Assembly: GCF_006345805.1 (NCBI RefSeq)
Contig: NC_043008.1
Location: forward strand, 53,568,001 to 53,632,000
Source of the DNA: Octopus sinensis
Lineage: Eukaryota
DNA: 64,000 nt
Direction: 5' to 3'
The notes beneath the pieces are model-generated. The model was not told where the DNA came from, searched no databases, and worked only from the letters and a program-made list of their open reading frames with translations. This document shows, piece after piece, positions 1 through 57,274 of this stretch. How positions within the stretch are numbered: the first letter of the stretch is position 1; each line of letters starts with the position of its first letter. The translations under genes were made by a program, and so were the position numbers.

Positions 1-210
<210 letters not shown>

Positions 211-2386: not shown

Positions 2387-3520
2387 ATGATCCGGTTCTT
2401 GACTGAAGGCTGAGGGTTTCGAGTGTCCTGTCCGTGTTATTGTGTCGTCTTCTAGAGTTATACGTTCTTGTCCATGTTGTATTTTTCTACATACCTTAAC
2501 ATATATTCCAGGCGCCCCGTACCCCCCTTATCATAATGTGAGCACATATTCTTAATAATTGGTACGACTCTCTGTTTGTCTTTCTCTCTCTCTCATTTTT
2601 ACTTGATCTGTCCCCCTCTCTCTCTTTTCTCTCTACTCATCCTCTCTTTCTCTTCTCTTTCCTCTGATTCTTTGGTCTAGTCTTCCACTACCCTCCTATT
2701 TCTTTGTCTCGCTCTGCACTCACAGGTCATTCTTCGACACCCATCCCTTCTCCTCTCTGATTCCTTCTTTCTCTCTCTCTCTCTTTTTACTTGATCTGTC
2801 CCCCTCTCTCTCTTTTCTCTCTACTCATCATCTCTTTCTCTTCTCTTTCCTCTGATTCTTCCACTACCCTCCTATTCTTTGTCTCGCTCTGCACTCACAG
2901 GTCATTCTTCGACACCCATCCCTTCTCCTCTCTGATTCCTTCTTTCTCTCTCTTCTCTCTCTTTGTTGCGTTTGTCCCTCCTCTCTCTCTCTCTTCCTTT
3001 GCTTCTCTTTCTTTTCTTTTCCCTCTTCTCTGTCACGTGACTGTTGGCCGAAATCTGCCTTTCAGCTCCTGACCCTCGTCGTGTTAACATCGTTGTTTTT
3101 CGTCCGCCGCTATAAAGGCTTCTTCCAATGCGCCAGAGAAAAAATTTGTTTGCTTGTTATCAGTCGTAAGACACTTGTTGTTTTCACCGTTAATGCTTCT
3201 GTATTTCATGTTTCTGTATTCCATTATTGTTTTTTGTTTTTTTTTATATCTGTCCCTTTTGCTGTCCTGGTGTTCGTATGCATTCGATCCTTCTTCCAGG
3301 AAATCTACGCTTCCAGCTTAGTTTTTCTAATGCTCGTTGCTTAGTTTTTCTTGGAGGGCTGGCCGTGATCTAGTAATCTCAAGATTAATCAGCCGAAATT
3401 ACTACGATGATCCGGTTCTTGACTGAAGACTGAGGGTTTCGAGTGTCCTGTCCGTGTTTATTGTGTCGTCTTCTAGAGTTATACGTTCTTGTCCATGTTG
3501 TATTTTTCTACATACCTTAA
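2387..3520 (+). mobile_element. Non-coding Penelope-like/retrozyme-like element with about 113-bp terminal direct repeat
   Basis: 2387-2499 is near-identical to 3407-3520; pyrimidine-rich interior with a roughly 185-bp tandem duplication (about 2590-2950); (TA)n on both flanks; carries a permuted hammerhead. Confidence 0.7.
3361..3433 (+). ncRNA. Candidate non-circularly permuted hammerhead ribozyme
   Basis: Stem III TAGTAAT(3371-77)/ATTACTA(3398-3404), cleavage triplet AUC(3376-78), stem I TCAAGA(3379-84)/TCTTGA(3417-22), CTGAAGA(3423-29), stem II CTGA(3430-33)/TCAG(3389-92) with 2 extra nt before GAAA(3395-98). Confidence 0.65.
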
Positions 3521-3537
3521 TATATATATATTATATA

Positions 3538-3580
<43 letters not shown>

Positions 3581-3618
3581 ATATATACATATATATACAT
3601 GTATATACATGTACATAT

Positions 3619-4403
3619 CGAAATCAATACGGGACCTGGGGATAGACATGAGTGACGATGCATCTTTTTCTTCACACATCGCGAAGGTGGCGACAATGTG
3701 CAGACGACTCACTGGCTGGATCCTGAGGACATTCCGGACAAGAGACTGCGAGACCATGTTGACACTATGGAGGACATTTGTCCTAAGCCGCCTGGACTAC
3801 TGCTCCCAACTGTGGTCACCGCATAGTGTCAAACTAACCACAGAGCTCGAGACAATCCAAAGACATTTCACCAAGAGGATTTCCACCATGAAAGAAAAGA
3901 ACTATTGGGAGAGGCTTAGGGAACTCAATTTGTACTCCTTGGAACGAAGACGAGAGAGGTATGCAGTGATATACATATGGAAAATCCTGGAGGGACTAGC
4001 ACCAAATTTTGGAATTGAGAGCTGTTCCAATCCCCGTACAGGACGTCACTGTGTGATGCCAAAGGTCCCGTCTTCCACATCCAGGGTAAGGAGCAGATAC
4101 TGTAATAGCCTGGGGTTCAGGGGCCCTCAGCTTTTCAACAGACTGCCAAGAAAACTAAGAGATCTACATGATGCGGATGTTGACATTTTCAAAAAACATC
4201 TAGACAAGCTGCTTTCCGGGATCCCAGATGAACCCACTGCAAGGTACGAAGGTAACCTAAGGGCAGCAGCTACAAACTCTCTCTTAGATCAGTGGCCAGC
4301 CACGGCAAACTGGACTTAGAGAGGGTAGCAACAAGGGCGGTGCCCCAGCATGGCCTCAGCCGGATGGCTGAAACAAGTAAAAGAGTAAAAGAGTAAAAGA
4401 GTA
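3619..4403 (+). mobile_element. 5'-truncated CR1-group LINE (C-terminal ORF2 plus 3' UTR and tail)
   Basis: Open frame to stop at 4319 with RDLGI..., VLSRLDYCSQLWSP, LETIQRHFTK, YWERLRELNLYSLERRRER, FNRLP, FKKHLD, typical of the post-RT region of CR1/L2-group ORF2; ends in a stem-loop and (GTAAAAGA)n. The ORF track's N-terminal YIYI part is microsatellite read-through. Confidence 0.92.
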
Positions 4404-14834: not shown

Positions 14835-15265
14835 AAGAGAGACATGCATATCTGGGTAGAGGACGTCACCAATGGTGCAAATAACATGAAATACGCAAAC
14901 GAGGGAAAAATGAGGGGAATACGTAAACAACGAGAAGGAAAATGGAAAACAGGACAATTAATCACTGGGAAAGGACCCTTCATCAGTTGTCGGCTGTGTA
15001 TCAATCCTCATTTCGAGCATTCAACGACAATATCAGTCTTCAAAGACAGTTGCGCCCATAAATTCTAAAATAAAGTTTAAGATTTATAGAAGGTCATAGT
15101 TGGGAACAAAACAAATGACAGCGGAGACATACAAGGAAACCGAACGAAAACAAACATGGAGGGTCGTTGGACCAGAACGAGAAGAAATTAGTGAAGGCTG
15201 GGAGAAACATTTTTTTTTTTTGTTTTGAAAAGGGAAATGGTAGAAATGAGAAAGAAAAACACACA
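14835..15265 (-). mobile_element. Fragment of a non-coding element carrying a permuted hammerhead
   Basis: Architecture and 3' end (GTGACGTCCTCTACCCAGATAT) resemble 54544-55452 (GTGGTGTCCTGTACTCACGTAT). Boundaries approximate. Confidence 0.55.
14975..15051 (-). ncRNA. Candidate non-circularly permuted hammerhead ribozyme
   Basis: Minus strand gacuga-UA-uugucg-uugaau-gcuc-GAAA-ugag...cagc-cgacaa-CUGAUGA-a-gggu; stem I 6 bp perfect, stem II GGGU/GCUC, stem III with one mismatch. Confidence 0.65.
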
Positions 15266-54543: not shown

Positions 54544-55452
54544 GCATATATTTTATTTATTACACTATTGTATGACTGAGCGCCCTCGCGTCGATTCGAT
54601 TCGATTCGTTCGTTTCGTTTCGTTCTTCTTCTCCAAGTACTGTTTTTATATATAATTATGACGCGAAACTCTTACCTCTTTGCTTTACCTTCCCTTCTTT
54701 CCCTATCTCTCTCTCACTCCTCCTCATCTCTCTCAGCCGCTTGTCTTCCTCTATCTCTTTCTCTCCCTCTCACTCCTCCTCATCTCTCTCACAGCCAGCC
54801 AACTCTTCCTTTTACACGCGGCCTTCTAACTGTAAACACACGGTTTTCCTTGCGCTCTCCAGAATCTTCCTCGTCTAGGCCAAAAAAGGCCCTTTTCGTT
54901 TGTTTTTCTTGTTTTGTTTTTATTTCTCGTATTATAATTTTTTGTAATTGTATTTTTATTTTGTATTTTATTTTGTATTTTTATTTGTATCGTTTTTACG
55001 TCCTGTTTTTGTTACATTTTTTCTTTCTTTGTTTTTACCCCTCTGCGAAGTAATTTTATTTAATTTCTTCGCAGGAAGGGCTAGTTCGGCGAGTCGTGTT
55101 CTGTCCTACCTTCGAAACACGCTGGAGTTGAACTAGGGACAGCTGATGAAGGGGATTTTTTCCTTATGTAGTTTGTCTTGTACTCTGTTTTTCGTTGTAA
55201 AAAAATGGTCTGTTCGATGCTTGTTTTTCCGTTTTCGTTTCTCGTTGAGTTCTACGTCTATTTGTGGTGTCCTGTACTCACGTATATATATTTATATATG
55301 CATGTATATATACATGTAGATGTAGGTACGTACATATAGGTATGTTTCTATGCATATATTTTATTTATTACACTATTGTATGACTGAGCGCCCTCGCGTC
55401 GATTCGATTCGATTCGTTCGTTTCGTTTCGTTCTTCTTCTCCAAGTACTGTT
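54544..55452 (+). mobile_element. Non-coding element with 101-bp terminal direct repeat (808-bp period), carrying a permuted hammerhead
   Basis: 54544-54644 matches 55352-55452; pyrimidine-rich interior; same layout as 2387-3520. Confidence 0.75.
55081..55154 (+). ncRNA. Candidate non-circularly permuted hammerhead ribozyme
   Basis: Stem III CGTGT(55095-99)/ACACG(55117-21), triplet GUU, stem I CTGTCC(55101-06)/GGACAG(55137-42), CTGATGA(55143-49), A, stem II GGGG(55151-54)/CTTC(55110-13), GAAA(55114-17); extra helix CTAGTTC(55081-87)/GAACTAG(55130-36). Confidence 0.72.
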
Positions 55453-56285: not shown

Positions 56286-56673
56286 AACGTTCAACTAGAC
56301 ACTCCCATATTATCTCGCAGATGAGAAAACAAATAAAAAGTAATTTATGCCGAATAAACAAATACAAAACCATATGAAAAATATCAAACAAAACATTGAT
56401 CGACATATATTTTAATGGACAAAATAGTTTTGTGTTACATATTTTTTATTGAATTTTCCTCTTTTTTTTGTGGTGCATATTAAGTTTCCATTTCTTTTTT
56501 ATTAAAGACAAGCAGACAATAGGTCTAATTGCCAAGATGTAGATATGGATTATCATTTTAAGATCGAAATGCATATACTTAAACAAACAATGTGTAAATG
56601 GTAGAAAGAGTTCGGCATTATGTGACCATGTTATTTGCAGAAAATAAAATCGATCTCACAAATATAAAGGTGC

Positions 56674-57032
56674 ATGCATACACAAACACATGTATACATG
56701 CATGTATGTATGTATGTATGTATGTATGTATGTATGTATGTATGTATGTATGTATGTATGTATGTATGTATGTATGTATGTATGTATGCATGTGTGTATG
56801 CATGTATGTATGTATGCATGTATGTATGTATATATATATATATATATACATGTATATCAAATCCGCATATATGTTTACATATGTACACGTATACAATATA
56901 TATATATACACAAGCACATTTGTATGCACAGACGTGTACATATACACACAACACATATATGAGCATGTATATATATATATATATATATTGTATACGTGTA
57001 CATATGTAAACATGTATGCGGATTTTATATAC

Positions 57033-57079
<47 letters not shown>

Positions 57080-57274
57080 CATACATGCATGCATACATAT
57101 ATACATACATACATACATACATACATACATACATACATACATACATACATACATACATACATACATACATACATAAATACATACATGCATGTATACATGT
57201 GTTTGTGTATACATGCTCATATATGTGTTGTGTGTATATGTACACGTCAGTGCATACAAATGTGCTTGTGTATA
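56674..57274. repeat. Interleaved inverted duplication (A-B-A'-B') in microsatellite-rich DNA
   Basis: AAATCCGCATA.ATGTTTACATATGTACACGTATACAAT and CACAAGCACATTTGTATGCAC.GACGTGTACA each reappear reverse-complemented. Confidence 0.88.

What the first reader, a model, noticed from the sequence alone, without database searches (positions are those of the whole stretch)
14975..15089. Third Z-Y-X hammerhead, minus strand
Seen on the minus strand: upstream hairpin CUAUAAAU/AUUUAUGG, then CUGA-UA-UUGUCG, GCUC-GAAA-UGAG, and CGACAA-CUGAUGA-A-GGGU, with a short extra helix CUGU/ACAG. Stem I has a third distinct sequence; stem III has one G-G mismatch, probably decay. Three divergent instances in 64 kb suggest an abundant, diversified motif in this genome.
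Basis: partly seen in the sequence, partly recalled or inferred. Interest (0 to 1): 0.8.

Follow-up and report, generated by a model that had tools for sequence, protein, structure and literature searches.

The report
Split, scrambled hammerhead in octopus retroelements
This is a mutation-damaged copy of an abundant repeat in an octopus-type genome whose family carries all the parts of a hammerhead RNA in a scrambled order, with an extra upstream strand likely completing one helix; the intact form is predicted to cut its own RNA and likely explains why Naiad retrotransposons were thought to lack this ribozyme.

Summary
The motif is real. It is one decayed copy of a roughly 750-bp non-coding repeat with Penelope-like hallmarks. 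The hammerhead blocks run cut site, GAAA, CUGAUGA: the non-circular order 'SGC', published only from metatranscriptomes (Eckert 2023). The stem III mismatch is decay: 91 of 100 copies have C, only this one has G.

In four unrelated families the strand before GAAA pairs with a fourth, upstream strand (5 Watson-Crick pairs each, different sequences). The strand after CUGAUGA pairs further upstream instead. So the core is opened between A9 and G10.1, a form I did not find in print.

The same fold ends published octopus Naiad consensi; a clean CSG order ends nematode and spider Naiads (read by eye), a clade reported to lack canonical hammerheads. Copy 5' ends pile up at the predicted cut in three non-coding families but not in the Naiad sample. 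RNA-seq showed no ends. Cleavage is untested, and this copy has several lesions and is probably dead. The scan noted this motif before in this and other genomes.

The parts
14845..15262 (-). 5'-truncated copy of repeat family 1 (full unit about 746 bp), ending in a (TA)n/(CA)n tract
15090..15095 (-). strand a (GACCUU; consensus GACCCU), pairs with a' just after A9
15056..15089 (-). hairpin between strands a and b (8 bp plus an upper stem, U-rich loop)
15051..15055 (-). strand b, the fourth strand, predicted to supply G10.1 and helix II (GCGCA here; consensus GAGCA; lesion at 15054)
15044..15049 (-). 5' strand of the extra helix O (CUGUCU), the likely counterpart of Eckert's stem I-II interaction helix
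   Evidence: inference from PMC10085705
15037..15043 (-). left side of a GA-rich internal loop (kink-turn-like bend)
15031..15036 (-). block S: stem III 3' strand CUGAU (consensus CUCAU; G at 15034 is private) and A17; predicted cut between 15031 and 15030 after AUA
15025..15030 (-). stem I 5' strand UUGUCG
15007..15019 (-). block G: helix II strand UGCUC, GAAA, stem III strand AUGAG
14994..15006 (-). right side of the internal loop (one base lost) and 3' strand of helix O (ACACAG; consensus AGACAG)
14980..14992 (-). stem I 3' strand CGACAA and core CUGAUGA
14974..14979 (-). strand a' (AGGGUC) directly after A9
55038..55154 (+). family 2 copy, same architecture with unrelated stem sequences (b GAAGG / CCUUC; triplet GUU)
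3357..3436 (+). family 3 copy (young; best-matching copies 99-100% identical), same order (b GGCUGG / UCAGCC; triplet AUC)

Best explanation
The window holds a decayed copy of a non-coding Penelope-like repeat whose family encodes a hammerhead core in scrambled (cut site, GAAA, CUGAUGA) order, likely completed by a fourth upstream strand, and the intact RNA is predicted to cut itself after AUA. Shown by sequence: block order, stems I and III, the extra helix O, and the repeat's fixed 3' end, ragged 5' ends and tandem or inverted copies. Inferred from four-family covariation: strand b pairs with the strand before GAAA and supplies G10.1, while the strand after A9 pairs with strand a. A hairpin and the a/a' helix therefore replace the A9-G10.1 backbone link. 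Helix O, reached through a kink-turn-like bend on stem III, would hold stems I and II together. Topologically this is Eckert's CSG/SGC class re-opened at a new point inside block C. From established hammerhead chemistry (recalled): the 2'-OH of A17 attacks the adjacent phosphate, with G12 and G8 as base and acid, leaving a 2',3'-cyclic phosphate and a 5'-OH. Inferred role: cutting tandem or read-through transcripts into unit-length RNA, possibly circularised, that a Penelope-like (most likely Naiad) reverse transcriptase copies into (TA)n sites. This particular copy is probably inactive.
For: Core C3-A9, GAAA and U16.1 are kept in all four families, while N7 varies and the base at the cut is never G. 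Stems I and III have 5-7 Watson-Crick pairs with unrelated sequences. The b pairing has 5 Watson-Crick pairs in 4 of 4 family consensi, always starting with G-C, 20-24 nt upstream of U16.1; shuffle P = 0.043, 0.017, 0.108, 0.025. a/a' is 6 Watson-Crick pairs in family 1, and its commonest variants are C>U against G. The same fold ends the published Naiad_Obim and Naiad_Ovul consensi, and that motif has 69 exact matches in this genome against 0 for the control. Three nematode and spider Naiad ends read by eye as CSG with a 3-nt linker and an interaction helix. Craig et al. list 'HHR_half_core' Naiads with the second half of the core 35-50 nt away on either side. Family-1 5' ends: 21 of 89 fall at +12..-4 of the predicted cut against 6.0 expected; 18 against 5.7 at +10..-4, but 10 against 14.3 over the structured +41..+11 part. 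With the same window, family 2 gave 8 against 3.0 (P = 0.012, 71 ends) and family 3 gave 3 against 0.65 (P = 0.029, 30 ends).
Against: No cleavage assay. The family-1 window was chosen after seeing the data. The Naiad sample shows no pile-up (3 against 3.1 of 52; its search pattern hides ends beyond +7), and family 2 is just as raised at +33..+13, which fits reverse-transcriptase stalling or trimming. Most copies run through the site. Raw RNA-seq laid on a family-1 copy gave flat depth across the site and no pile of read ends; those reads were under 99% alike, of both orientations, and 80-85% ran on into other sequence. No reverse-transcriptase or endonuclease ORF was found joined to family 1 in the seven long copies read upstream or in the ORF listing of L001-L080 (output partly cut), nor upstream in 52 Naiad-type loci. 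Family 1 and Naiad share only short words (best E 0.07). Craig et al. call cephalopod Naiads long inactive, yet family 3 is nearly identical copy to copy. The a/a' partner is ambiguous in family 3 and in Naiad.
Confidence: 0.68

Rival explanations
1. Ordinary type-SGC hammerhead: block C stays whole, one extra A sits after A9, and GGGU pairs with GCUC; the upstream strands only form a competing or regulatory fold.
For: The conventional helix can be drawn in families 1 and 2 (2 Watson-Crick plus 2 G-U). One extra base after A9 occurs in the canonical type-I family of this genome, in many Hydra-clade hammerheads and in the spider Naiad end.
Against: It has no pairs in family 3 and two in the Naiad family, whereas b gives 5 Watson-Crick pairs in all four. 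Isolated helix energies are -1.5 against -5.4 kcal/mol, and a/a' (-8.7) sequesters the GGGU strand.
Confidence: 0.1
2. A hammerhead-derived but non-cutting structure, kept as the recognition or folding signal for the Penelope-like reverse transcriptase; the 5' end pile-up comes from stalling at the pseudoknot.
For: Most copies extend through the site; no pile-up in the Naiad sample and raised ends downstream of the site in family 2; no read ends in RNA-seq; metazoan PLE hammerheads cleave poorly in vitro (PMC4209133 passages).
Against: Exactly the catalytic residues are conserved while N7, the base at the cut and all stems vary. In family 1 the excess of ends lies 5' of the last 3' helix strand, where the fold is already unwound, and not in the structured part.
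Confidence: 0.15
3. The same helices form between two neighbouring units of a tandem transcript, or two molecules, rather than within one unit, so that only multimers are cut.
For: Tandem arrays with 737-850 bp spacing occur in all three families; dimeric action is proposed for metazoan PLE hammerheads; the monomer needs a sharp bend between stem III and helix O.
Against: Stem III is a full non-palindromic 5-7 bp helix, so nothing forces a dimer. A standard kink-turn pattern sits at the bend in the Naiad family. Published SGC and CSG RNAs cut as single constructs.
Confidence: 0.06
4. Chance arrangement of short motifs in an AT-rich repeat.
For: CTGATGA alone is no more frequent than expected in the window (10 against 10.0).
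Against: 0.01 SGC hits per shuffled window; the same layout recurs with unrelated stems in four families.
Confidence: 0.01

Closest known systems
Type-SGC hammerheads (HRIMA-1 and variants), Eckert et al. 2023, PMC10085705
   Same: Order S-G-C; full core; short linker from stem I to the helix II strand; a helix joining the other sides of stems I and II.
   Different: Theirs were found in metatranscriptomes, none in genomes of known organisms, and block C is assumed unbreakable. Here the helix II partner and the interaction strand lie upstream of S, A9 leads into a separate helix, a hairpin is inserted, and the motif is in genomic repeats.
Type-CSG hammerheads (Eckert et al. 2023; two metagenomic sequences)
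   Same: Same cyclic order of strands: helix II strand, interaction strand, S, G, interaction strand, stem I, CUGANGA.
   Different: CSG starts before block C and keeps it whole; this form starts between A9 and G10.1.
Naiad Penelope-like elements, Craig et al. 2021, PMC8557442
   Same: (TA)n insertion sites, 5' truncation, tandem and inverted copies; octopus Naiad consensi end in the same fold.
   Different: Family 1 has no ORF found and little sequence similarity to Naiad; the paper reports no canonical hammerhead in Naiads.
Non-LTR retrozymes and type-I hammerheads of PLE pseudo-LTRs (PMC4209133; bioRxiv 10.64898/2026.07.22.740005)
   Same: Non-coding tandem units with one hammerhead each, thought to depend on PLEs.
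   Different: Those carry type-I (CGS) minimal hammerheads with a short stem III; descriptors for them cannot detect this order.
Viroid hammerhead with an extra nucleotide after A9 (De la Pena and Flores 2001; only its title seen in a reference list; content recalled)
   Same: An insertion between A9 and G10.1 is tolerated (recalled).
   Different: One base, not a two-helix branch with a change of strand.

Membership tests
Hammerhead ribozyme | Core CUGANGA, GAAA and U16.1-H17 in register with stems I and III | tested here: met
   Family consensus meets all; the window copy has one G-G mismatch in stem III
Hammerhead ribozyme | Helix II closed by G10.1-C11.1 | tested here: met
   Met through upstream strand b in 4 of 4 family consensi; the window copy has a C-U mismatch at the second pair
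Hammerhead ribozyme | Site-specific self-cleavage after H17 | not testable with these tools
   Only an indirect, mixed 5'-end footprint; RNA-seq uninformative
Type-SGC hammerhead | 5'-to-3' order S, G, C | tested here: met
Type-SGC hammerhead | Block C intact: helix II strand follows CUGANGA within 1-2 nt | tested here: not met
   Weak in families 1 and 2, absent in family 3, two pairs in Naiad
Type-SGC hammerhead | Interaction helix joining the other sides of stems I and II | tested here: met
   Helix O follows b and precedes the stem I 3' strand, but its 5' strand lies upstream of S, not at the 3' end
Penelope-like element, non-autonomous | Fixed 3' end at microsatellite, ragged 5' ends, tandem and inverted partial copies | tested here: met
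   TA-type tract 79-155 nt after the probe in 30 of 30 loci (loose motif; such tracts are common here); inverted neighbour in 3 and tandem in 3 (one array) of 30; 5' ends spread over 485 nt
Naiad clade | ORF with N-terminal GIY-YIG, CxC linker and C-terminal reverse transcriptase | tested here: not met
   No ORF found joined to family 1; family 1 is filed as Naiad-like, not as a Naiad
Non-LTR retrozyme | Tandem non-coding units each with a type-I hammerhead | tested here: not met
   Tandem units yes, hammerhead type no
Non-LTR retrozyme | Circular monomer RNA in vivo | tested here: inconclusive
   The stretches laid were shorter than a unit and a religated junction equals the genomic sequence
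Kink-turn | 3-nt bulge followed by tandem G-A/A-G pairs between a canonical and a non-canonical stem | tested here: inconclusive
   Standard pattern in the Naiad consensus and L057; family 1 keeps GA/GA, U-U and a 3-nt bulge but has extra GA pairs; family 3 has a plain bulge (read by eye; motif definition recalled)

The most novel reading that the evidence does not exclude
[quoted passage not shown] This would be a permutation outside the six-order scheme, present in thousands of genomic copies and used to cut and circularise element RNA.
Probability: 0.5. Interest if true: 0.88.

Novelty: new variant of a known kind. Interest (0 to 1): 0.76.

Why it matters
It would move non-circularly permuted hammerheads from unidentified environmental RNAs into animal chromosomes, give them a host element, and explain a stated gap (Naiads 'lack canonical hammerheads' but show half-cores). 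A core opened between A9 and G10.1 breaks the assumption behind the six-permutation scheme, so current descriptors and Rfam miss a large class. Because stem III is complete, single units may be assayable, which would make the open question of what PLE hammerheads do directly testable. The window copy itself is only a decayed fossil of the family.

Tried and rejected
Rfam at gathering threshold: no ribozyme match. MFE folding of the copy: not informative for a pseudoknot. Repeat finder: swamped by microsatellites. Pattern CGAAA-N12-40-CTGATGAAGG gave 11,964 hits against 44 in the control, but 21 of the 30 loci viewed belong to a different family with a canonical type-I hammerhead downstream, so I do not use that count as a copy number. 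Looking for an ORF upstream of family 1 or of Naiad-type ends: none found; the PLE reverse-transcriptase fragment in L057 and the GIY-YIG-like fragment in L029 appear to be neighbours, not parents (by eye, not run against Pfam). Run search: no RNA holder listed. Family 3 had 0 reads in three RNA runs (no test) and 103 contigs in a run only guessed to be RNA. A 10-bp straight helix O in family 2 and a sarcin-ricin-type reading of the family-1 loop were considered; neither is shared by all families. Lunse et al. 2017 is not held. Forgia 2023 and Perreault 2011 passages showed no split-core form. Search of earlier scan findings by sequence returned nothing.

Full report
Observation. The described motifs are all present on the minus strand. 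A descriptor allowing any order of the three hammerhead blocks found two loci in the window, 14975-15036(-) and 55094-55154(+), both in the order cut site (S), GAAA (G), CUGANGA (C); the third row of that output is a second parse of the first locus. One hundred local dinucleotide shuffles gave 0.01 such hits per window. A looser scan found a third locus at 3357-3429(+). CTGATGA by itself is at chance frequency, and Rfam does not detect the motif.

It is a repeat. The 151-nt query had 2,384 first-look candidates in the genome, of which 40 were scored, mostly at 88-92% identity; a 24-nt probe had 205 exact matches against 0 for the control. At 6-8% divergence from the consensus that suggests one to two thousand copies (inference). 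The window copy spans about 15262-14845. Copies share a 3' end at a TA-type tract, have 5' ends spread over 485 nt, and occur in tandem (746-bp spacing) or next to inverted partial copies. Families 2 and 3 behave alike, with units of about 737 and 850 bp. These are the structural hallmarks listed for Penelope-like elements. No coding region was found joined to family 1. The genome is octopus-type: the 3' motif of the published Octopus Naiad consensi occurs 69 times exactly.

C16.3 is C in 91 of 100 aligned copies; the G is unique to the window copy. The extra helix is 6 bp in the consensus. Of 76 copies covering the whole fold, 11 keep the core and helices I, III and b/II, and 6 also keep O and a/a', as expected for neutrally decaying insertions. 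The window copy carries lesions in stem III, helix II, helix O and the internal loop and is probably inactive.

Stem II needs re-drawing. In the consensi of family 1 (90 sequences), family 2 (32), family 3 (16) and the Naiad family (11), the strand before GAAA has a 5-pair Watson-Crick partner 20-24 nt upstream of U16.1: GAGCA/UGCUC, GAAGG/CCUUC, GGCUG/CAGCC, GACAC/GUGUC, always opening with G-C. Shuffle probabilities are 0.043, 0.017, 0.108 and 0.025. The conventional partner after CUGANGA gives 4 pairs (2 G-U) in families 1 and 2, none in family 3 and 2 in Naiad. Of seven single divergent copies parsed, four had a b helix of 5-6 Watson-Crick pairs; two decayed family-3 relatives had 3 and one was mis-parsed. 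The strand after A9 pairs with strand a upstream of the hairpin: 6 Watson-Crick pairs in family 1 and 5 in L053. In family 2 the script picked a different partner and I read CCCCU/AGGGG by eye; in family 3 and Naiad the partner is ambiguous. Isolated helix energies are -5.4 (b/II), -1.5 (conventional II) and -8.7 (a/a') kcal/mol. Within-family variation is mostly decay and gives little covariation; the support is between families.

How the fold relates to known ones. Eckert et al. [quoted passage not shown] In the present motif b runs into the 5' strand of helix O, whose 3' strand runs into stem I. That is the interaction helix they describe, but placed upstream. The cyclic order of strands equals CSG, with the opening moved to between A9 and G10.1 and clamped by a/a' and the hairpin (inference). 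Between stem III and helix O the Naiad family has a standard kink-turn pattern; family 1 has a related but non-standard GA-rich loop and family 3 a plain bulge (by eye; motif recalled). A bend is needed there for a monomer to fold.

Naiad link. Craig et al. (PMC8557442; passages, preprint passages, supplement parts 1-2 and search snippets) report that Naiads lack canonical hammerheads but mark several as 'HHR_core' or 'HHR_half_core'. I saw the last few hundred bases of 13 consensus ends and read them by eye only. Three show the cephalopod form (Naiad_Obim, Naiad_Ovul, and Naiad_Esco, whose helix II partner is unclear). Three show a clean CSG with a 3-5 nt linker and a 9-16 bp interaction helix (the entries preceding the Hcon, Asuum and Lpol headers; by table order Naiad-3_Nbra, Naiad_Hpol and Naiad_Smim). 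Seven showed nothing I could parse in the visible part, some being incomplete consensi. Family 1 shares architecture, target and two short positional words with the octopus Naiad end (best E 0.07), so Naiad is the likeliest but unproven mobiliser. Family 3 is very young although cephalopod Naiads are called long inactive.

Indirect test of cleavage. If the RNA is cut, reverse transcripts should end at the site. From 90 of the 205 probe matches I mapped 91 5' ends, 89 after collapsing two tandem duplicates. Twenty-one lie at +12..-4 against 6.0 expected (P = 1.5e-6; window chosen after inspection; sparse far-upstream windows reach similar rates on 3 events). The excess is 5' of the last 3' helix strand (18 against 5.7 at +10..-4) and absent over the structured part (10 against 14.3), which argues against simple stalling. 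The same window gave 8 against 3.0 in family 2 (71 ends from 70 of 556 matches, one row duplicated; +33..+13 equally raised), 3 against 0.65 in family 3 (30 of 75) and 3 against 3.1 in the Naiad family (52 of 69; ends beyond +7 invisible). The footprint is therefore suggestive and mixed. Copies that run through the site need uncut or re-ligated circular templates; circles would also explain the tandem arrays (inference).

RNA data. Three raw RNA-seq runs (about 6% of each read) gave 607, 480 and 447 reads on a family-1 copy at 85% likeness, none 99% alike, in both orientations, 80-85% running on into other sequence, with no pile of ends and no dip at the site. They look like passengers in other transcripts of a related species and neither show nor exclude cleavage. 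Family 3 was not testable.

Novelty. Searches for non-circular permutation or type-SGC with hammerhead, hammerhead with octopus, Naiad with hammerhead, kink-turn with hammerhead and retrotransposon and core insertions or extra helices returned no report of this order in animal genomes or of a core split at A9/G10.1. The 2026 retrozyme preprint used type-I descriptors only (passages), and a 2026 paper cites only Eckert and two others for variant hammerheads (passages). The library lacks most subscription papers and Lunse 2017; bioRxiv supplements were closed. The scan itself has noted this motif in this genome and others; those notes are leads, not support.

Verdict. Real, repeat-borne, hammerhead-derived: near certain. 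Four-strand helix II: likely (about 0.85-0.9). Active self-cleavage of the intact form: likely but untested (about 0.75). Mobilised by Naiad: about 0.6. New variant of a known kind; interest 0.76.

Noticed in passing
L083, L090-L102 and others (21 of 30 loci): A very abundant separate repeat next to (AAT)n/(AAG)n tracts carries a canonical type-I minimal hammerhead with one extra A after A9; its helix II (GGCUG/CAGCC) is the same sequence as the b/II helix of family 3, a possible ancestral link.
   Followed up: partly
window 2387-2437 (+): A second, 5'-truncated family-3 copy that starts inside the ribozyme and forms a tandem with the copy at 3285-3520.
   Followed up: partly
L012, L013, L072 (upstream parts of the units): Families 1 and 3 carry CACGTGAC words, family 3 a TATA-like box, and family 1 a splice-donor-like AAG/GTAAGT at the unit's 5' end, resembling the internal promoter and intron described for Penelope pseudo-LTRs.
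   Followed up: no
L053, L098, L104, L106, L087: Intermediate subfamilies mix family-1 loop sequences with family-2 helices, giving a graded series suited to covariation analysis.
   Followed up: partly
L057:2328-3180 (+); L029:255-900 (+): Fragments that look like a Penelope-type reverse transcriptase and a GIY-YIG endonuclease beside, but apparently not joined to, the ribozyme families.
   Followed up: no
window 1-64 (-): tRNA-like match (Rfam 34 bits), probably the head of a tRNA-derived SINE.
   Followed up: no
window 3560-4319 (+): Open frame resembling the C-terminal part of a LINE reverse transcriptase directly after the family-3 copy.
   Followed up: no
window 56657-57227: Long inverted repeat (263-nt arms, 86% complementary, 45-nt spacer) of microsatellite-rich sequence.
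   Followed up: no
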